Assembly (NCBI GenBank): GCA_001782825.1
Contig: MFPS01000003.1
Span: 44,353 to 108,352, forward strand
Direction of reading: 5' to 3'
DNA from: Candidatus Magasanikbacteria bacterium RIFCSPHIGHO2_01_FULL_33_34
GTDB taxonomy: Bacteria; Patescibacteriota; Patescibacteriia; Magasanikbacterales; UBA922
Length of the DNA stretch: 64,000 nt
Shown one piece after another: positions 788-54,305 of the stretch. Every line of letters starts with the position of its first letter. The stretch's first letter is position 1. The notes under the pieces are model-generated. The model ran no database searches, was not told the origin of the DNA, and saw only the letters and a list, made by a program, of their open reading frames with translations. The translations under genes and the position numbers were made by a program.

Positions 788-925
788 ATATAATAGCGTT
801 ATTTATACTTTTAATCATGACCGTATCAATTTGTTTATTTATTTTTACTCCCTGCCTGCCGGCAGACAGGATTCTCGCCTGCGGGCTCCGAGGTGTCGCC
901 TGTTGTGGCAACAAATCCGTAAAAA
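788..925 (+). repeat. Nested-palindrome intergenic repeat, long-type 5' module plus core with inserted hairpin (copy b)
   Basis: The 5' module is ataatagcgttatttatactttt... The core is ctccctgcctgccggcagacaggattctcgcctgcgggctccgagg plus the hairpin gtcgcc-tgttgt-ggcaac, then aaatccgtaaaaa. Confidence 0.75.
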
Positions 926-26007: not shown

Positions 26008-27951
26008 ATGACCGCACCGCAACTCAGACAATCAAATCAAGTTGATAAGGCAAAAGAAGATATTTGTCTTTTTGGTCAAACAAATTATAGAAATCAATTG
26101 ACTAGGTTTGGTATCAAGACTGATGATAGGCGACGACATATGTACATCATAGGTAAAACTGGTATGGGAAAGACAACTATGATGGAAAATATGGTTTTGA
26201 ATGATATTTATAAAGGTCATGGTTTGGGGATAGTTGATCCTCATGGTGATTTTGCTGAAAAAATTATAGATTTTATCCCGTCTAGACGTATTAATGATGT
26301 GGTATATTTCAATCCATCAGACACTGATAATCCGATTGGTTTCAATATTTTGGAAGTTAGTGATGAAAAACAAAAGCATCTTGTGGCAGCTGGATTGATG
26401 GGAATATTCAAAAAGATTTGGCCAGATGCTTGGAGTTCAAGAATGGAATATATTTTGAATAATACTCTTTTGGCTTTGCTTGATTATCAAGGTTCAACAT
26501 TATTGGGTATAAACAGATTATTGGCAGACAAAAAATATCGCAAAAGAGTAGTAGCTCAATTGAAAGATCCGGTAGTAAAAGCTTTTTGGCAAAATGAATT
26601 TGCCAGTTATTCTGATAGGTATATGACTGAAGCGGTGGCACCTATTCAAAACAAGATTGGTCAATTTTTGTCAGCTAGTGTTATCAGAAATATGGTTGCC
26701 CAAGTCAAATCTACAATAAATATCAGGAGTATAATGGACAATCAAAAGATATTTATTATGAATTTATCAAAAGGAAGAATAGGTGAGGACAATAGCCGAT
26801 TGCTAGGTGGTATGCTTATAACCAAATTACAATTAGCAGCCATGGAGAGAGTAGATATGCCAGAAGAGGATAGAAAAGATTTCTTTTTGTATGTTGATGA
26901 GTTTCAAAATTTTGCTAATCCAAGTTTTGCGAATATTTTGTCAGAAGCTCGTAAATATAGATTGAGTTTGATTTTGGCGCATCAATATGTAAAACAGCTT
27001 GATGAGTTGGTAGCGGATGCTGTTTTTGGTAATGTCGGTACAATGATATCATTTCGAGTTGGTGGGCCAGATTCAGTAGAGCTTGTCAAAGAATTTACGC
27101 CAACTTTTTTGGAAGAAGATATGGTGAATTTACCAAAGTTTCAGATTTTTTTGAAATTGATGATTGATGGTGTGGCTTCGCGTCCATTTAGTGCTATGTC
27201 TATGCCTCCAATTGGTTCACCGACTGGTAGCAGAGAAAAGGTGATTAGGGTTTCACGTGAGCGATATTCTACAAACAAAAATGAAATAGAAGACAAAATT
27301 ACTCGTTGGAGTGGAATGGATTTGAATGAGCAGACTGATTCAAGTAACAATGAAAAAAAGAAGGATGATAATAAGCGTAGAGATGACAAACCAAATTATA
27401 AGCCAAAGAGTGGTAATAGTTTTGATAAAAAAGATAGTAGTGTTAGAAAAGATATGCCAAATAATCAAAAATCTTCAAATACAGAATTACCAAAAATAAA
27501 TACAGAAGAAATTAAAAAAGTGGAAGTGAATAAACCAATAGTTTTATCACAATTACAATCTAATAATCAAAATCAAGCTAATTTGGTTGAATTTTCTTCA
27601 AACAAAAGAAAGAGGCGAAGAAAGAAAAAAGGGCATAGCCATACTGATATTGCAATTGTTCAAAAATCAGAAATTATTCCTGTAGGGAGTTTAAAAACAG
27701 TTGAGGTTGTAAAAAATATACAAACAAGTACAAACAATAGGCCTAATATTTATCAGAATACAAATTATACAAAAGCTAGTGTTTCATTAGATGATAAAAA
27801 AAATAATCAAACTGTACAAAATATACCGCAACAAAGTTTGCAAGTTATTGCAAATAATAATGTTATAACAAATAAAAATAATGATGAAAAACCACCAAAT
27901 AATAATCAAACAAATTCTTTGGAAAAAGGTATTATAGTTAAATTTGATTAA
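26008..27951 (+). CDS. P-loop ATPase of the TraD/VirD4/HerA-FtsK-like superfamily with an N/K/Q-rich C-terminal tail
   Basis: Walker A is IIGKTGMGKTT. Walker B is FLYVDEFQNF. There is a conserved AHQ. The ~230-aa C-terminal tail is low-complexity. Confidence 0.55.
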   Translation: MTAPQLRQSNQVDKAKEDICLFGQTNYRNQLTRFGIKTDDRRRHMYIIGKTGMGKTTMMENMVLNDIYKGHGLGIVDPHGDFAEKIIDFIPSRRINDVVYFNPSDTDNPIGFNILEVSDEKQKHLVAAGLMGIFKKIWPDAWSSRMEYILNNTLLALLDYQGSTLLGINRLLADKKYRKRVVAQLKDPVVKAFWQNEFASYSDRYMTEAVAPIQNKIGQFLSASVIRNMVAQVKSTINIRSIMDNQKIFIMNLSKGRIGEDNSRLLGGMLITKLQLAAMERVDMPEEDRKDFFLYVDEFQNFANPSFANILSEARKYRLSLILAHQYVKQLDELVADAVFGNVGTMISFRVGGPDSVELVKEFTPTFLEEDMVNLPKFQIFLKLMIDGVASRPFSAMSMPPIGSPTGSREKVIRVSRERYSTNKNEIEDKITRWSGMDLNEQTDSSNNEKKKDDNKRRDDKPNYKPKSGNSFDKKDSSVRKDMPNNQKSSNTELPKINTEEIKKVEVNKPIVLSQLQSNNQNQANLVEFSSNKRKRRRKKKGHSHTDIAIVQKSEIIPVGSLKTVEVVKNIQTSTNNRPNIYQNTNYTKASVSLDDKKNNQTVQNIPQQSLQVIANNNVITNKNNDEKPPNNNQTNSLEKGIIVKFD

Positions 27952-28770: not shown

Positions 28771-29169
28771 ATGAATTATTTGAGAGCTATTAAGACTGGA
28801 GTAATGTTGTGGCTAACAATTTTTGTGGTCATAACTATATTGATGTTTTTACCATTTCTTGTCGATAAAAAAATGCTTCAGTTTGGAATATTCTGGATAC
28901 TTTTGATTCCAATTGTTTTGTTGTTTTGTAAGTGGCATTTTAAGATGGATGCACCCAATCTAAAAAAAGGATTTTTATTGGGAATAATTATGCTTTTGGT
29001 TATTTTGGTATTGGATATGGTTATAACAGTGCCTTTGTTTGTAAAATCTTTTTCTGTATTTTTTGGTGATTGGATGATGTATGTAGGTTATATAGAAGTA
29101 TTGTTATTAGCCGTTTATGCTGGATTTGAGTTTGATAAGACATTTACAAAATACGATAATACCAAATAA
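28771..29169 (+). CDS. Small hypothetical membrane protein
   Basis: It has 3-4 hydrophobic helices. Confidence 0.45.
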   Translation: MNYLRAIKTGVMLWLTIFVVITILMFLPFLVDKKMLQFGIFWILLIPIVLLFCKWHFKMDAPNLKKGFLLGIIMLLVILVLDMVITVPLFVKSFSVFFGDWMMYVGYIEVLLLAVYAGFEFDKTFTKYDNTK

Positions 29170-29179
29170 AAAACAGAAC

Positions 29180-29200
29180 GTCCCGGCACGGTGCCGGGAC
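29180..29200 (-). terminator. Perfect 10-bp GC-rich palindrome (gtcccggcac g gtgccgggac) acting as a terminator for the minus-strand small ORF
   Basis: The sequence shows the palindrome. On the minus strand a T-run follows it. Confidence 0.65.
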
Positions 29201-29224
29201 GGTACATCACTTCAGAAGAAACTT

Positions 29225-29398
29225 CTACAACAGCATCAGGGAGTTTACGACGTCATTACGTCCGGTGGGCCGTGCTGACACAGCCCCATCGAAACCCCAG
29301 TTCATCAAGGGGTTTGTGCCATCATCTTCCTCGATGTGTACATCTACCGCTTGGATGATTTTCTTTCTTTGTGCTTTGTTGTTTGCTTTCTTCTTCAT
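29225..29398 (-). CDS. Small (57 aa) ORF inside a GC-rich islet: MKKKANNKAQRKKIIQAVDVHIEEDDGTNPLMNWGFDGAVSARPTGRNDVVNSLMLL
   Basis: ATG at 29398 preceded by GGGGGAG-aatc, followed by the GC-rich terminator. GC content here is far above the flanks. The ORF is under the 60-aa track cutoff. Confidence 0.5.
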   Translation of the reverse strand: MKKKANNKAQRKKIIQAVDVHIEEDDGTNPLMNWGFDGAVSARPTGRNDVVNSLMLL

Positions 29399-29555
29399 GA
29401 TTCTCCCCCTAGGGTGTTGATTTTGGTATCACTGTATGTGACACCTAGTACAACTTGGCAACATTATACTACAAAAATGACCTTTTGTCAACGTATTATA
29501 AGGCATTATATTTAGTATTGATTAATATAAGTTTGTGTGCTAGTATGTTAATATT

Positions 29556-31109: not shown

Positions 31110-31138
31110 TTGACATGATTTTAATGATTGGTTATAGT
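31110..31138 (+). promoter_or_regulatory. Consensus-like promoter (TTGACA-17-TATAGT)
   Basis: It is upstream of the 31174 ORF, and the leader carries an AAGGGGAG SD. Confidence 0.55.
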
Positions 31139-51202: not shown

Positions 51203-52717
51203 ATGTCAAAATTTTATATCACCACCACTTTGCCTTATGTAAATTCCAATCCACATATTGGTTTTGCATTAGAAATTATCCAAGCTGATGCGATTGTTCG
51301 TTTTCGTCGCTTACTGGGGGACGATGTTTTTTATAATACTGGTACTGATGAGCATGGTTTAAAAATTTTTAGAAAAGCCGAAGAGCAAGGGGTTCCACCA
51401 CAAGAATATACTGATGAATGGGCAGATAAATTTCGCAAGCTTGAAGGGTTACTTAATCTAGACCACCCAACTTTTATTCGGACTACTGACAAAAATCATG
51501 TTTTAGCTGCACAAGCATTTTGGAAGATTTGTCTAGATAATGGGGATATATACAAAAAAAATTATCAAGTTAAATATTGTGTTGGTTGTGAATTGGAAAA
51601 AACTGAATCAGAATTGGTTGAGAATAGGTGTGCAGTTCATCCATCCCAAGAGCTTGAATTGATTGATGAGGAAAATTATTTTTTTAGTTTTTCAAAATAT
51701 GAGAAAGCACTTTTGGAATATTATGAAAGTAATCCAGAATTTGTTATTCCAAATTATAGGTTCAATGAAATAAAGGAATTTGTAAAAAGTGGATTAGAAG
51801 ATTTTAGTATTTCAAGAATAAAAGAAAAAATGCCATGGGGAGTGCCAGTGCCAGGAGATGAACAACATGTGATGTATGTTTGGTTTGATGCTCTTATCAA
51901 TTATATTTCCACCCTTGGTTGGCCAGAAAATACTCAGAATTTTGAGGATTATTGGGGAACAAATAATAAACCTAATGCTATACAAGTCGCTGGCAAAGAT
52001 AATTTGCGTCAACAATCAGCTATGTGGCAGGCAATGCTTGCGTCCGCTAGATTGCCATTTTCTAAACAAGTGTTTATTCATGGCTTTATTACTTCAGAAG
52101 GAAAAAAGATGAGTAAAAGCGAAGGTAATGTCGTGGATCCTTATGAAACAGTAAAAAAATATGGGGTAGATGCAGTCAGGTATTATTTGCTTGGAGCTAT
52201 TCCACCTTATGATGATGGGGATTTTTCCATAGAAAGGTTTGAAGAATTTTATAATGCTCATTTAGCAAACGGAGTAGGGAATTTGACTAGTAGAATTTTG
52301 ACTATGGTTGAGAAATATAGTGATGGTAAAGTACCAGATACAGCTGATGATATTTTTGATACCAAAATATTTTGGATTGAATATGAGAGATTTTTCAATC
52401 AGTACAAATTTGATGAGGTAGTTAAACTTACACAAGAGTTGGTAGGTCGTGTTGATAAGACAATTTCTTCTGAAAAACCATGGGAAAAAGAAAAAAATGG
52501 TGAAAATATTTTACCTTTGCTTTATCAGTTGACTGAAGCTTTGCGACATATTGCGATTGCTCTTTTGCCGATTATTCCTAGTAGTGCTGAGCAAATATTG
52601 AATAAATTAGGTATTGACAAAGCTTCGTTTACTTCATTTGAACAAGAAAAAAAATGGCAAAAATTGCAAAAAGGTGTTACAGTAAATAAAGGTGAAGCAT
52701 TGTTTCCGCGTATATAA
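51203..52717 (+). CDS. metG: Methionine--tRNA ligase
   Basis: PYVNSNPHIGF is the HIGH region, and KMSKS is present. Confidence 0.92.
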   Translation: MSKFYITTTLPYVNSNPHIGFALEIIQADAIVRFRRLLGDDVFYNTGTDEHGLKIFRKAEEQGVPPQEYTDEWADKFRKLEGLLNLDHPTFIRTTDKNHVLAAQAFWKICLDNGDIYKKNYQVKYCVGCELEKTESELVENRCAVHPSQELELIDEENYFFSFSKYEKALLEYYESNPEFVIPNYRFNEIKEFVKSGLEDFSISRIKEKMPWGVPVPGDEQHVMYVWFDALINYISTLGWPENTQNFEDYWGTNNKPNAIQVAGKDNLRQQSAMWQAMLASARLPFSKQVFIHGFITSEGKKMSKSEGNVVDPYETVKKYGVDAVRYYLLGAIPPYDDGDFSIERFEEFYNAHLANGVGNLTSRILTMVEKYSDGKVPDTADDIFDTKIFWIEYERFFNQYKFDEVVKLTQELVGRVDKTISSEKPWEKEKNGENILPLLYQLTEALRHIAIALLPIIPSSAEQILNKLGIDKASFTSFEQEKKWQKLQKGVTVNKGEALFPRI

Positions 52718-52731
52718 AAATTGGAGGGGAA

Positions 52732-52896
52732 ATGGGTCCTCAAAAAGTTATAAAAGATGATAGATTTTGTGGTGAGTGTGAACTTACAGTTTTGCATTTA
52801 GTCGTTGTATTTGAAGTTGTACGAATAGAAATATGTTGTGTGTGTTATGGTGTAACTAGATATACTGTAGAAAAAACTAAAATTCCACCAAATTAA
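52732..52896 (+). CDS. Small Cys-rich ORF (54 aa): MGPQKVIKDDRFCGECELTVLHLVVVFEVVRIEICCVCYGVTRYTVEKTKIPPN
   Basis: A strong SD (GGAGGGG) sits 4 nt upstream. It carries a CxxC plus CCxC pair. It is under the track cutoff. Confidence 0.4.
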   Translation: MGPQKVIKDDRFCGECELTVLHLVVVFEVVRIEICCVCYGVTRYTVEKTKIPPN

Positions 52897-53057
52897 TACA
52901 AAATTGTATATACAAAAAAGTAAAAAAATTTTACAGAAAGTAAAAAATTGAAAAAAATAGATTCGTTCAAAAAACAAATTCGTGCTTCACCATAAAGGCT
53001 CTTGCAAAAGAGCCTTCGTCTATTTATAAGTTGTAAATTGTTTATAAAAAAAAGTTG

Positions 53058-53090
53058 CCGGCCCCGACGAATCGGGACCGGACTTGGCCG
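53058..53090 (-). terminator. GC-rich nested hairpin (ccggcc-cccga-cgaa-tcggg-...ggccgg) plus a T-run on the minus strand
   Basis: The palindromes are visible. On the minus strand they are followed by cttttttttat. Confidence 0.6.
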
Positions 53091-53102
53091 GAGGGCTGGG
53101 AG

Positions 53103-53270
53103 CTAGTCCCAGCGGACGGGTCGGTGGAAGAACTGTTCCTCCGTATCCGAGAACACCGGGAGAGGAGGCACCTCGATGCCGAACTCCTTCTCGGTCTTCT
53201 CCGCCAGTATGGCGAAGAAATTCTCCAGCATCTTCAGCGTCAAACCACCATACTTCTTGTTCGTTTCCAT
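53103..53270 (-). CDS. Small (55 aa) ORF inside a GC-rich islet: METNKKYGGLTLKMLENFFAILAEKTEKEFGIEVPPLPVFSDTEEQFFHRPVRWD
   Basis: The ATG at 53270 is preceded by GGGGGATAC. Third-position GC is about 78%. A GC-rich terminator follows. Confidence 0.55.
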   Translation of the reverse strand: METNKKYGGLTLKMLENFFAILAEKTEKEFGIEVPPLPVFSDTEEQFFHRPVRWD

Positions 53271-53459
53271 AGTATCCCCCGTGACTTGTCCCACTCTGAC
53301 GTTATTGTCAGTTGATGGGAACAATACAGTATAGCATATTTTAACACTTTTGTCAAGACCTATTTGGAGTAATTTAGCTAAAATAAGCAAAAAAATATAA
53401 ATTTATTTGGTGATTTTTATTGCCTAAATTATAGTTATAATGTAGTATTAATGTAATAT

Positions 53460-54305
53460 ATGTTATTAGATACTCATTGTCATTTACAGTTCAAAGGATT
53501 TGATGAAGATAGGGGAGATGTTATAAAACGCATTGCAGAAAAAGGCGTTGTTTTGAATATTGTTGGCACGCAAAAAAATACTAGTAAGTTGGCAGTTGAA
53601 TTGGCAGAAAAATATGAAAATTTTTATGCATCAATCGGTACTCATCCGGTCCATTTGTTTCCTAGTCATATAGATGAAGAAGAATCTAGTTTTAAATCTC
53701 GTGAAGAAGATTTTGATGAAGAATATTATGGTGAATTGGTCAAATCAAAGAAAGTGATTGCTATTGGGGAGACTGGACTAGAATTATATCATTTGCCCAA
53801 AGACAAAACAGTTGAAGAAGTTTTGAAAAAACAAAAAGAGGTGTTTGTGGCCCATATTAATTTTGCAAAAAAACATGATTTGCCATTGGTGATACATTGT
53901 CGTGAAGCGCATGAAGAAATGGCAAATTTATTGGAAAGTTTTGGTAGAAATATAAGGGGCACAATGCATTGTTTTACAGGCAATTGGGAACAAGCACAAA
54001 AATATTTGAAATTAGGATTGTATTTGGGTTTTACTGGTGTAGTTACTTTTCCACCCAAAAAAACCAATCCTCAACAACAAATTGATTTGCTGGAGGTTTT
54101 GGAGCGGGCTCCACTGGATAGAATAGTCGTAGAAACTGACTCGCCATATCTTGCTCCGCAAATTTGTCGGGGTAAACGATGTGAACCGTGGATGGTAGAG
54201 GAAGTTGTAAAAAAATTGGCAGAAATAAGAAAAATGGAGTATAAGGAAGTAGAGGATCAGGTGGCAAAAAATACCTTGGCTTTGTTTACTAGAATTAATG
54301 CTTAA
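53460..54305 (+). CDS. tatD: TatD-family metal-dependent hydrolase
   Basis: The N-terminus is MLLDTHCHL. Conserved H/E/D metal ligands are present. Confidence 0.85.
   Translation: MLLDTHCHLQFKGFDEDRGDVIKRIAEKGVVLNIVGTQKNTSKLAVELAEKYENFYASIGTHPVHLFPSHIDEEESSFKSREEDFDEEYYGELVKSKKVIAIGETGLELYHLPKDKTVEEVLKKQKEVFVAHINFAKKHDLPLVIHCREAHEEMANLLESFGRNIRGTMHCFTGNWEQAQKYLKLGLYLGFTGVVTFPPKKTNPQQQIDLLEVLERAPLDRIVVETDSPYLAPQICRGKRCEPWMVEEVVKKLAEIRKMEYKEVEDQVAKNTLALFTRINA

What the first reader, a model, noticed from the sequence alone, without database searches (positions are those of the whole stretch)
53030..53330. Second GC-rich islet encoding a 55-aa ORF with about 78% third-position GC
The minus-strand ORF runs 53270 to 53103 and encodes METNKKYGG...HRPVRWD. 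It is preceded by GGGGGATAC-ATG. It is followed by a GC-rich nested hairpin and a T-run. Its codons are strongly GC3-biased (about 43 of 55). That is the signature of coding sequence evolved in a high-GC genome, and it differs sharply from the host genes here. The alternative plus-strand frames over the same DNA are P/R/S/G-rich, as expected for out-of-frame high-GC sequence.
Basis: seen in the sequence. Interest (0 to 1): 0.65.

Follow-up and report, generated by a model that had tools for sequence, protein, structure and literature searches.

The report
GC-rich orphan mini-gene cassette
About 315 bp of GC-rich DNA in a very AT-rich groundwater bacterium (Candidatus Magasanikbacteria) is a self-contained gene, with its own strong promoter and terminator, for a 55-residue protein that has no detectable relatives; it was probably acquired from an unknown source and its function is unknown.

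Summary
The minus-strand ORF 53270..53103 encodes 55 aa with GC1/2/3 = 0.55/0.31/0.80 (44 of 55 third positions). Host genes have GC3 of 0.23 ± 0.04, and none of 1451 host 55-codon windows exceeds 0.455. The three-base periodicity (p = 1.5e-6) and a host-like amino-acid composition in this frame alone mark it as coding.

It is a complete monocistronic unit:
- a near-consensus extended -10 promoter, one of only nine scoring at least 11 of 12 in the window;
- a 5'-terminal stem-loop;
- the ribosome-binding site GGGGGA;
- the ORF;
- an intrinsic terminator.

Identical DNA occurs in four assemblies (NCBI, JGI, two ENA), and two further ENA assemblies differ by 2-3 substitutions, so it is not an assembly artefact. 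No Rfam family matches.

The protein is an orphan in every protein, structure, phage, plasmid and metagenome search. Two other Magasanikbacteria carry unrelated GC-rich orphan ORFs at the same spot, divergent from tatD. The closest known analogue is a phage "moron", here in a core chromosome.

No donor was found. First- and second-codon-position GC and the amino-acid mix look AT-genome-like. The promoter and ribosome-binding site look host-like.

Function is unknown. Interest is moderate.

The parts
53328..53356 (-). Sigma-70-type promoter: -35 TTGACA (53356..53351), 17-nt AT-rich spacer, TG-extended -10 TGcTATACT (53336..53328)
   Evidence: It matches 11 of 12 consensus positions and has the TG extension. 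Only 9 sites in the 128 kb of both strands score at least 11 of 12; the others include the promoter in front of an IF-1-like gene (function recognised by eye from its first residues, not run against any family library) and the one for islet 1. The spacer GC is about 24%, which is host-like.
53271..53321 (-). 5' untranslated leader of about 50 nt. A nested stem-loop lies at the extreme 5' end (53320..53289) and the ribosome-binding site GGGGGA is at 53280..53275, 4 nt before the ATG
   Evidence: The stem-loop appears in both the MFE and the centroid fold. The transcription start is inferred from the position of the -10 element and was not measured. G-rich ribosome-binding sites of the same type precede AT-rich host genes (31110 gene, orf54).
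53103..53270 (-). Coding sequence of the 55-aa orphan protein p55 (6.5 kDa, pI 5.0): METNKKYGGLTLKMLENFFAILAEKTEKEFGIEVPPLPVFSDTEEQFFHRPVRWD
   Evidence: GC1/2/3 = 0.545/0.309/0.80, periodicity p = 1.5e-6, and a host-like amino-acid composition (+20 bits) in this frame only. JGI's gene caller called exactly this 55-aa ORF. The AlphaFold2 single-sequence model (pLDDT 74) shows a short beta element at 6-11, a helix at 12-30 and a disordered Pro/acidic tail. The NCBI 95-aa version starts at a TTG at 53390, upstream of the promoter, and is probably over-extended.
53095..53113 (-). Hairpin GCUGGGA-cuagc-UCCCAGC enclosing the UAG stop codon
   Evidence: Read directly from the sequence and present in the MFE and centroid folds. 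Its function was not tested.
53046..53085 (-). Intrinsic terminator: G+C-rich nested hairpin (core 53081..53058) followed by CAAC and T8 (53053..53046)
   Evidence: Terminator scan: 10 pairs, 8 of them G-C; fold. GC falls from 70-75% to 15-35% within 40 nt downstream.
52995..53016 (+). Convergent terminator of the metG/orf54 transcription unit. It faces the p55 terminator, so the two units do not overlap
   Evidence: Terminator scan. Context feature, not part of the cassette itself.
52732..52896 (+). orf54, a Cys-rich 54-aa ORF with host-like composition (GC3 0.09). Together with the p55 cassette it fills the metG-tatD interval, where relatives carry cvpA
   Evidence: Context feature.

Best explanation
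The islet is a real, autonomously expressed gene for a small protein, on a compositionally foreign single-gene cassette of about 315 bp (53046-53360). It lies in a variable intergenic slot of the core chromosome of a Candidatus Magasanikbacteria (CPR) bacterium.

Shown:
- a near-consensus extended -10 promoter;
- a ribosome-binding site followed by an ATG;
- a 55-codon frame with a strong coding signature;
- an intrinsic terminator facing the terminator of the neighbouring unit;
- the same DNA in several assemblies.

Inferred mechanism:
- Transcription starts near 53321.
- The stem-loop at the very 5' end and the G+C-rich body make a stable monocistronic mRNA of about 275 nt.
- This mRNA is translated into a 6.5-kDa acidic cytoplasmic protein with one amphipathic helix and a disordered Pro/acidic/aromatic tail.
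- The protein most likely acts by binding another protein, not as an enzyme, membrane protein or secreted peptide.

Inferred origin: the cassette entered already GC-rich, from an unsampled source such as a mobile element, a virus or another uncultivated organism, in the manner of a phage 'moron'. The argument is that a gene with no relatives even in sister genomes is young in this lineage, while a GC3 of 0.80 against a background of 0.23 cannot build up quickly in place.
For: Coding:
- GC1/2/3 = 0.545/0.309/0.80, chi-square p = 1.5e-6.
- Only this frame has a host-like amino-acid composition (+20 bits) and host-like purine-at-position-1, G-at-position-1 and A-at-position-2 values.
- JGI called the same 55-aa gene.

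Expression signals:
- The promoter matches 11 of 12 positions and has the TG extension. It is among the 9 best in the window. One of the others precedes an IF-1-like gene, whose function was read by eye from its first residues and not run against any family library.
- There is a 5'-terminal stem-loop, a ribosome-binding site and a terminator.

Foreign composition confined to the unit:
- GC is 20-40% in the promoter, 40-55% in the leader, 80% at third codon positions and 70-75% in the terminator. It drops to 15-35% just beyond.
- Host GC3 is 0.227 +/- 0.038.

Not an artefact:
- There are 0 mismatches to NCBI, JGI and ENA contigs over 6-12 kb.
- One strain variant has 3 SNPs in 10.2 kb. One of them is a synonymous ACG>ACT change inside the ORF.

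Insertion-like context:
- metG-cvpA-tatD is the common arrangement in relatives.
- This genome has no cvpA there, nor anywhere else in the window.
- Relatives L026 and L077 carry unrelated GC-rich orphan ORFs of 110 and 122 aa, each with its own promoter and terminator. They sit at the same place and in the same orientation, divergent from tatD.
- Other relatives hold ordinary host-composition genes there.

Related cassettes:
- Islet 1 in the window (29165-29491) has the same architecture and is also an orphan.

Literature:
- The definition of a moron (single ORF, own promoter and terminator, inserted between genes that are adjacent in relatives, deviant composition) comes from PMC4378225.
- Gene transfer into Patescibacteria is reported as common, mostly from other Patescibacteria, with competence and pilus genes prevalent (PMC12455944).
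Against: - No donor or homologue of any kind was found.
- The mean GC of codon positions 1 and 2 (0.427) and the amino-acid mix look like an AT-rich genome's protein. They fall at the 3rd percentile for high-GC CPR genes.
- The promoter spacer is AT-rich and the ribosome-binding site is host-type. So either only the transcribed part is foreign, or the signals were optimised after arrival.
- No target-site duplication, terminal repeats, integrase or other trace of mobility was found.
- No close relative lacking the islet is available. The nearest other species has only 66% MetG identity, so insertion is inferred, not observed.
- There is no expression data and no functional clue. The structure model rests on a single sequence, and every fold match has E > 4.
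Confidence: 0.6

Rival explanations
1. The gene is native, and its whole transcript is kept GC-rich by selection. Possible reasons are resistance to AU-specific RNases, a long mRNA half-life, or deliberate use of rare codons to tune translation. The origin is not foreign.
For: - GC of codon positions 1 and 2 and the amino-acid composition are host-like. Only synonymous sites and the UTRs are GC-rich.
- The compositional switch coincides with the transcript boundaries in seven cassettes from five genomes, while the promoters keep host composition.
- The promoter and ribosome-binding site are of host type and among the strongest in the window.
- 5'-terminal hairpins, which fit stabilised mRNAs, occur in both window cassettes.
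Against: - Other host genes with top-scoring promoters are AT-rich: the IF-1-like gene downstream of the 35663 promoter and the small gene at 31110. None of the 50 long host ORFs, ATP synthase genes included, exceeds GC3 0.349.
- Shuffling synonymous codons gives no extra structure for p55 (z = -0.7).
- Reaching GC3 0.80 from 0.23 needs a long time. Yet the gene has no homologue even in sister genomes.
- No mechanism of this kind is known (my own knowledge).
Confidence: 0.2
2. The functional product is a structured or dual-function RNA. GC-rich islets in AT-rich genomes are the classic sign of RNA genes. On this view the ORF is incidental, or only a secondary feature.
For: - The unit has its own promoter and terminator, lies in an intergenic region and is about 275 nt long.
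- The fold z-score is -3.1 on the minus strand.
- The predicted fold pairs the ribosome-binding site with a CCCUCC stretch just after the stop codon.
- A relative (L010) has a genuinely RNA-like GC islet next to metG, with z = -9.7 and no periodicity.
Against: - There is no Rfam match at gathering score. The best sub-threshold hits are chance-level (20-25 bits against thresholds of 38-50).
- Strong three-base periodicity and a host-like protein composition in one frame are not expected of a pure RNA gene.
- The z-score is modest and similar on the opposite strand (-2.7).
- The synonymous-shuffle z is -0.7.
- A ribosome-binding site sits at the correct distance from the ATG.
Confidence: 0.1
3. 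It is a decaying, functionless scrap of imported DNA. The ORF and its signals are fortuitous and it is not expressed to any purpose.
For: It is an orphan with no detectable constraint. The only polymorphism seen in it goes from G/C to A/T (G>T on the coding strand), the direction expected for amelioration.
Against: - The frame is intact.
- The ribosome-binding site, an 11-of-12 TG-extended promoter and a strong terminator are all correctly placed around it. In the region scanned, shuffles give about 3 promoter-like and 0.8 terminator-like sites per kb at much looser thresholds.
- GC3 is still at 0.80, so there has been little amelioration.
- The one SNP is synonymous.
Confidence: 0.07
4. It is an assembly or binning chimera: a GC-rich fragment from another organism spliced into an AT-rich contig.
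For: The composition changes abruptly over about 230 bp. One short ENA contig (L169) starts at window position 53051, at the edge of the islet.
Against: - The same junctions appear in NCBI (GCA_001782875.1 plus two more MAG accessions), JGI 3300002502, ENA ERZ27254763 and ERZ28563660. These were made with different assemblers and show 0-3 mismatches per 10 kb.
- Functional signals straddle the compositional boundaries: the promoter is AT-rich, the leader intermediate, and the terminator's T-run is AT-rich.
Confidence: 0.02

Closest known systems
Phage 'morons' (as defined in PMC4378225, which cites Juhala/Hendrix; read)
   Same: A single ORF flanked by its own sigma-70 promoter and factor-independent terminator. 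It lies between genes that are adjacent, or differently filled, in relatives. Its nucleotide composition differs sharply from its neighbours. The mechanism of acquisition is unknown and there are no recombinase footprints.
   Different: The context is a core bacterial chromosome (metG, tatD, F-type ATP synthase operon), not a phage or prophage. The host is a CPR bacterium. The deviation is toward higher GC and sits at synonymous sites, while the amino-acid mix remains host-like.
Lineage-specific ORFans and single-gene genomic islets attributed to horizontal transfer
   Same: Short, without homologues, compositionally atypical, and absent from relatives at the syntenic site.
   Different: From my own knowledge, bacterial ORFans are usually more AT-rich than their genome and weakly expressed. 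This one is much more GC-rich and carries one of the best promoters in the window. Relatives have unrelated GC-rich orphans at the same slot.
GC-rich RNA genes in AT-rich genomes (the principle behind GC-content screens for ncRNAs; my own knowledge)
   Same: A sharp GC peak in an intergenic region, with its own promoter and terminator and a stable predicted fold.
   Different: It has three-base periodicity, a ribosome-binding site plus ATG, and a protein-like composition. No covariance-model match was found, and there is no structure beyond what the codon composition itself gives.
Type I toxin-antitoxin and small toxic-peptide loci
   Same: A small independent ORF, a structured leader, and a predicted long-range pairing that could mask the ribosome-binding site.
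   Different: p55 is acidic and hydrophilic (GRAVY -0.47) and the model shows no transmembrane helix. No antisense promoter was found over the ORF.

Membership tests
Phage moron | Single coding region with its own promoter | tested here: met
   One 55-aa ORF. Promoter TTGACA-17-TATACT with TG extension, 11 of 12 matches.
Phage moron | Own factor-independent terminator | tested here: met
   Hairpin 53081..53058 followed by T8.
Phage moron | Lies between genes that are adjacent in related genomes | tested here: inconclusive
   metG-(cvpA)-tatD is conserved in 103 related loci, and none of them has p55. However, the nearest relatives share only about 65% MetG identity, and the interval is also remodelled in other ways here (cvpA missing, orf54 present).
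Phage moron | Nucleotide composition differs from adjacent genes | tested here: met
   GC3 of 0.80 against 0.227 +/- 0.038; islet GC up to 0.67-0.70 against 0.32.
Phage moron | Resides in a phage or prophage genome | tested here: not met
   The neighbours are metG, tatD and the F-type ATP synthase operon. There are no PHROG hits and no match in viral contigs or phage records. It therefore works like a moron but is not filed as one.
   Only the gene itself is found among 5.8 billion clusters and in a full HMMER scan of 1.84 billion representatives. The one other hit is a 14-residue motif in a repeat protein, E = 2e-4. JGI contigs, plasmids and phages gave nothing.
   Mean GC of positions 1 and 2 is 0.427. 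That is the 3rd percentile of high-GC CPR windows with GC3 of 0.72-0.88 (their means are 0.62 and 0.42). GC2 of 0.309 equals the host's 0.32. The sample is small (55 codons), so this weakens the claim but does not exclude it.
   Only short AT-rich chance repeats, no tRNA in the window, and no other copy of the islet.
Known structured RNA family (Rfam 15) | Covariance-model score at or above the family's gathering threshold | tested here: not met
   No matches at gathering score in the whole window. The best local hits are ylbH at 20 bits (threshold 50) and SdsR at 24.7 bits (threshold 38), the latter lying on the neighbouring terminator.
Known structured RNA family (Rfam 15) | Conserved structure supported by covariation | not testable with these tools
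   No homologous sequences exist to align. nhmmer against the 168 loci held when it was run finds only the same organism.
Type I toxin (small membrane peptide with antisense RNA) | Hydrophobic or transmembrane peptide | tested here: not met
   GRAVY -0.47, net charge -3.4, and an amphipathic helix, not a transmembrane one.
Any curated protein family (Pfam, NCBIfam, PHROGs, PADLOC, PDB) | Significant profile or fold match | tested here: not met
   No families matched. The best PDB sequence match has E = 0.43. All Foldseek matches have E > 4.

The most novel reading that the evidence does not exclude
AT-rich Magasanikbacteria, and perhaps other CPR bacteria, carry a previously unrecognised class of micro-genes. 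They would be strongly promoted, hairpin-capped, monocistronic orphan genes in which the transcribed region alone is GC-rich, mainly at synonymous sites, and which are repeatedly installed or replaced at permissive slots such as the one upstream of tatD. On this reading the GC-richness is itself functional. It might give an mRNA immune to AU-directed RNases, one that persists in dormant or host-attached cells, or one that is exported. It would not be a passive scar of the donor genome.
Probability: 0.15. Interest if true: 0.75.

Novelty: new member of a known kind. Interest (0 to 1): 0.4.

Why it matters
CPR/Patescibacteria genomes are small, and a large share of their genes have no known function. 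How they gain new genes is an open question. This locus is a clean, minimal example:
- one orphan gene;
- exact boundaries;
- expression signals among the strongest in the region;
- unrelated counterparts at the same slot in two other species.

If such cassettes prove to be common, they would mark where and how these epibionts take in and express foreign or novel genes. They would also supply a short list of highly expressed small proteins worth testing for roles in host interaction or defence.

The mismatch between host-like amino-acid content and un-host-like synonymous sites is a caution for method. A high GC3 alone does not identify a high-GC donor.

Tried and rejected
1. Known ncRNA. Rfam at gathering score on the whole window, and at E <= 10 on 52800-53500, gave only chance-level hits. 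ARAGORN found no tRNA or tmRNA.
2. Real gene on the plus strand. The 86-, 62- and 52-aa plus-strand ORFs have no promoter, non-coding-like position statistics (LLR <= 0) and no Pfam match.
3. The annotated 95-aa version (TTG at 53390). It starts upstream of the promoter, and its extra 40 codons lack the GC3 signal. The 55-aa ATG version is preferred.
4. Homology searches for p55. Tried: Pfam, PHROGs, PADLOC, NCBIfam, 5.8 billion clusters, a full HMMER scan of 1.84 billion representatives, IMG/VR, JGI metagenome contigs, phage and plasmid DNA and tblastn, PDB sequences, and Foldseek on the AlphaFold2 model. All were empty apart from a 14-residue KK[YH]GG..MLE.F motif in the repeat protein P0002, judged uninformative.
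5. Paralogy between the two islets, or among the seven GC-rich cassettes. No DNA or protein similarity was found.
6. Mobile-element footprints. The flanking direct and inverted repeats are short, AT-rich and inconsistent between the two islets. No second copy or complementary target exists in the window.
7. Selection for a specific mRNA fold. Synonymous-codon shuffles give z = -0.7 for p55, -2.6 for islet 1 and -1.5 for L026.
8. Finding an islet-free close relative. The GTDB representative genomes and JGI contigs yielded nothing closer than 66% MetG identity. The 90% clusters of TatD and MetG contain only strain variants at least 99.96% identical in DNA, and every one that covers the site carries the islet.
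9. Searches for donors of the related cassettes (L077 122 aa, L026 110 aa, islet 1's 57 aa). All three have no viral match. L077-122 and L026-110 have no Pfam, NCBIfam or PADLOC family. L077-122 and the 57-aa protein have no homologue in the 5.8 billion clusters; L026-110 was not searched there.
Full report
**Source and setting.** The window is from a Candidatus Magasanikbacteria (CPR/Patescibacteria) genome recovered from Rifle groundwater: RIFCSPHIGHO2_01_FULL_33_34, GCA_001782875.1, contig MFPW01000005. Overall GC is 32.3%. The finding lies between metG (51203-52717, +) and tatD (53460-54305, +). The F-type ATP synthase operon follows tatD.

- The stretch 53020-53264 is the most GC-rich part of the 64 kb. 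Its 100-nt windows reach 0.67, against a mean of 0.323 and sd of 0.066. It is also the strongest in 18 kb of extra flank fetched later.
- Third-position GC is 44/55 = 0.80, and GC1/GC2 are 0.545/0.309. The three-base periodicity is highly significant (chi-square 26.8, p = 1.5e-6).
- Fifty host ORFs of at least 150 aa have GC3 of 0.227 ± 0.038. None of 1451 host 55-codon windows exceeds 0.455.
- A codon index built on host usage is 0.224 for the ORF, against 0.70 ± 0.057 for host genes.
- The motif before the ATG reads GGGGGATACT.
- The ORF is followed by a hairpin enclosing the stop codon, then a 10-bp G+C-rich terminator hairpin, then T8.

An open frame of this length is not remarkable in such GC-rich DNA, because four of the six frames are long here. 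The coding call rests on other evidence:
- the periodicity;
- the amino-acid composition, where only this frame looks like host protein (+20 bits; the other five frames score between -0.0 and -37.0);
- host-like purine-at-position-1, G-at-position-1 and A-at-position-2 values;
- the flanking signals.

**Anatomy.** On the minus strand the unit consists of:
- a promoter, TTGACA-17 nt-TATACT with a TG extension (53356..53328; 11 of 12 matches);
- a leader of about 50 nt, whose first 32 nt form a nested stem-loop (53320..53289, in both the MFE and centroid folds);
- the ribosome-binding site GGGGGA, 4 nt before the ATG;
- the ORF;
- the terminator.

In the 128 kb of both strands only nine sites reach 11 of 12 matches to the promoter consensus. 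One precedes an IF-1-like gene. One precedes a small AT-rich gene with the same GGGGAGAATC-ATG type of ribosome-binding site. Two belong to the two GC islets, and islet 1 has the only 12-of-12 site. The IF-1 assignment was made by eye from the first residues downstream of that promoter; the gene was not run against any family library. The expression signals of the p55 unit are therefore host-type and of top strength.

The unit is convergent with metG/orf54, which has its own terminator at 52995-53016. It is divergent from tatD.

**Not an artefact.** The same DNA, with 0 mismatches over 6-12 kb, occurs in an NCBI MAG contig, a JGI metagenome contig and an ENA megahit contig. The protein is listed under three NCBI MAG accessions, and JGI called it as exactly 55 aa.

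A strain variant (ENA ERZ28563660) differs by 3 SNPs in 10.2 kb. One of these is inside the ORF and is synonymous (Thr43, ACG>ACT). I could not inspect reads.

**Not a known RNA.**
- Rfam has no match at gathering score in the whole window. Only chance-level hits appear locally.
- The predicted transcript folds somewhat better than dinucleotide shuffles (z = -3.1), but so does the opposite strand (z = -2.7).
- Shuffling synonymous codons while keeping the protein and the codon set leaves the energy unchanged (z = -0.7). There is therefore no sign of a specific selected fold.
- By contrast, a GC islet next to metG in relative L010 has no periodicity and z = -9.7. That is what an RNA gene looks like in these genomes.

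**The protein.** p55 is 6.5 kDa, acidic (pI 5.0) and hydrophilic. It has no signal peptide and no transmembrane segment. A single-sequence AlphaFold2 model (pLDDT 74) gives a short beta element, one confident helix (residues 12-30) and a disordered Pro/acidic/aromatic tail. Fold matches are meaningless, all with E > 4.

It has no homologue in any of these:
- Pfam, PHROGs, PADLOC or NCBIfam;
- 5.8 billion protein clusters;
- a full HMMER pass over 1.84 billion representatives;
- IMG/VR and JGI metagenome contigs;
- phage and plasmid records;
- PDB sequences.

The single weak hit is a 14-residue motif repeated in an unrelated low-complexity protein.

**Comparative context.** metG-tatD synteny holds in 103 of the 161 CPR loci then held, which include one copy of this same locus (L001). 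The two genes are either directly adjacent or separated by cvpA. No locus other than copies of this same organism has p55, by tblastn (run on the first 81 loci only) or by nhmmer (on all 168 loci held by then). The closest other species is only about 65% identical in MetG.

In this genome cvpA is missing from the interval, and from the whole window. The interval instead holds an AT-rich Cys-rich orf54 plus the p55 unit.

Two other Magasanikbacteria carry different GC-rich ORFs between cvpA and tatD: L026 (110 aa) and L077 (122 aa).
- Their GC3 is 0.72-0.83.
- Each has its own promoter and terminator.
- Both are on the strand opposite to tatD, exactly as here.
- They are unrelated to p55 and to each other. 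L077-122 has no homologue among the 5.8 billion clusters, and neither has any family or viral match. L026-110 was not searched against the 5.8 billion clusters.

Other relatives have ordinary host-composition genes in the same slot. It is therefore a generally variable position.

More cassettes of the same build exist. They include islet 1 in this window (57 aa, orphan), a second one in L026, and one each in L014 and L046. Six of the seven lie antiparallel to metG.

**Where the GC comes from.** Two results complicate this.

First, only synonymous sites and the untranslated parts are GC-rich.
- GC2 (0.309) equals the host mean (0.32).
- Mean GC of positions 1 and 2 (0.427) is typical of low-GC CPR genes. 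It lies at the 3rd percentile of 55-codon windows from high-GC CPR genes with similar GC3.
- The FYMINK and GARP fractions (0.33 and 0.20) are AT-genome-like.

Second, in all seven cassettes the composition switches at the transcript boundaries, while the promoters stay at host GC.

These facts would fit selection on the transcript. Against that reading:
- Other host genes with top-scoring promoters are AT-rich.
- No specific fold is selected.
- A gene with no relatives in sister genomes is young in this lineage, whereas driving GC3 from 0.23 to 0.80 in place would take long.

On balance I favour import of a segment that was already GC-rich, from an unsampled source, with host-type expression signals either brought along or optimised afterwards. 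Horizontal transfer into Patescibacteria, mostly from other Patescibacteria, is reported as common (PMC12455944). With 55 codons, the composition argument is suggestive and not decisive.

**What it resembles.** The unit fits the published description of a phage moron: a single ORF with its own promoter and terminator, lying between genes that are adjacent in relatives, with deviant composition (PMC4378225). The exception is that it sits in a core chromosome with no phage genes nearby. It therefore works like a moron but is not a member of that class. It is also an ORFan or single-gene genomic islet, unusual in being GC-richer than its genome and strongly signalled. It is not a type I toxin, because it is not hydrophobic.

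**Verdict.** This is a real, probably highly expressed, orphan small-protein gene on a moron-like cassette.
- Confidence that it is a protein gene: about 0.85.
- Confidence in the full statement, including foreign origin: about 0.6.
- Function is unknown. My best guess is a small protein-binding modulator, which is inference only.

Novelty: a new member of a known kind. Interest: 0.4. The recurrent, transcript-delimited GC-rich orphans at one slot are a pattern worth a genome-wide census, but nothing here yet points to a new mechanism.

Noticed in passing
window 29165-29491 (minus strand): The 'first' GC islet is built like the second. It has the only 12-of-12 sigma-70 promoter in the window (TTGACA-17-TATAAT, 29491..29463), a 5'-terminal stem-loop, the ribosome-binding site GGGGGAG, a 57-aa basic ORF (29398..29225; GC3 0.58) and a strong terminator. 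The protein is an orphan (only itself among 5.8 billion clusters). The mRNA is more structured than synonymous shuffles (z = -2.6). It has no sequence similarity to islet 2.
   Followed up: partly
window 52732-52896 (+): orf54 is a Cys-rich 54-aa ORF (RFCGEC...CCVCYG) directly after metG. It has a strong GGAGGGG ribosome-binding site and GC3 of 0.09. Gene callers found it on 25 contigs, and it has no Pfam match. It occupies the place where related genomes have cvpA, and no cvpA homologue exists anywhere in the window.
   Followed up: partly
L010 7543-7712 (+), identical in L091: In Magasanikbacteria RIFOXYD12_FULL_33_17 a GC-rich element of about 165 nt lies between metG and cvpA. It has a promoter-like site and a terminator. 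It folds into a long closing helix with a multi-branch core (MFE -99.7 kcal/mol; z = -9.7), shows no codon periodicity, and matches no Rfam family at gathering score. It is a candidate novel ncRNA. L083 and L034 have GC peaks at the same position but no sequence similarity.
   Followed up: partly
L026 8450-8118 and 5228-5037; L077 2277-1909; L014 9529-8999; L046 4904-5110: Other AT-rich CPR loci carry monocistronic, GC3-rich (0.62-0.83) orphan ORFs. Consensus-like promoters and GC-rich terminators were read off for the two L026 cassettes, L014 and L077; no promoter or terminator was identified for L046. The ORFs include a Zn-ribbon-like 63-aa protein and a 176-aa putative lipoprotein. Only four of the five were run against a family library: they have no Pfam family, and the L014 protein was not scanned.
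   Followed up: partly
window 53142 (L167, ENA ERZ28563660): A strain variant differs from the window at 3 positions in 10.2 kb. One lies in the 168-nt p55 ORF and is a synonymous G-to-T change on the coding strand (Thr43, ACG>ACT), that is, toward host composition. A single event carries no statistical weight.
   Followed up: yes
window 840-920: A short GC-rich intergenic element containing the near-palindrome CCTGCCTGCCGGCAGACAGG lies between two plus-strand ORFs. The 80-nt window GC reaches 0.60.
   Followed up: no
window 26008-27951 (+): A TrwB/VirD4-like type IV coupling-protein ATPase (Pfam PF10412, E = 1e-14) lies 1.2 kb from islet 1, among otherwise housekeeping genes.
   Followed up: no
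L047 9095-9699: A region of about 600 nt with 60-78% GC sits in a 38% GC Falkowbacteria locus. It has no clear codon periodicity and no Rfam match at gathering score.
   Followed up: no
window 1-64000: No tRNA, tmRNA or any Rfam family at gathering score was found in the 64 kb. GC skew is positive throughout, and 39 of the 50 long ORFs are on the plus strand. Both GC-rich cassettes are on the minus strand.
   Followed up: no
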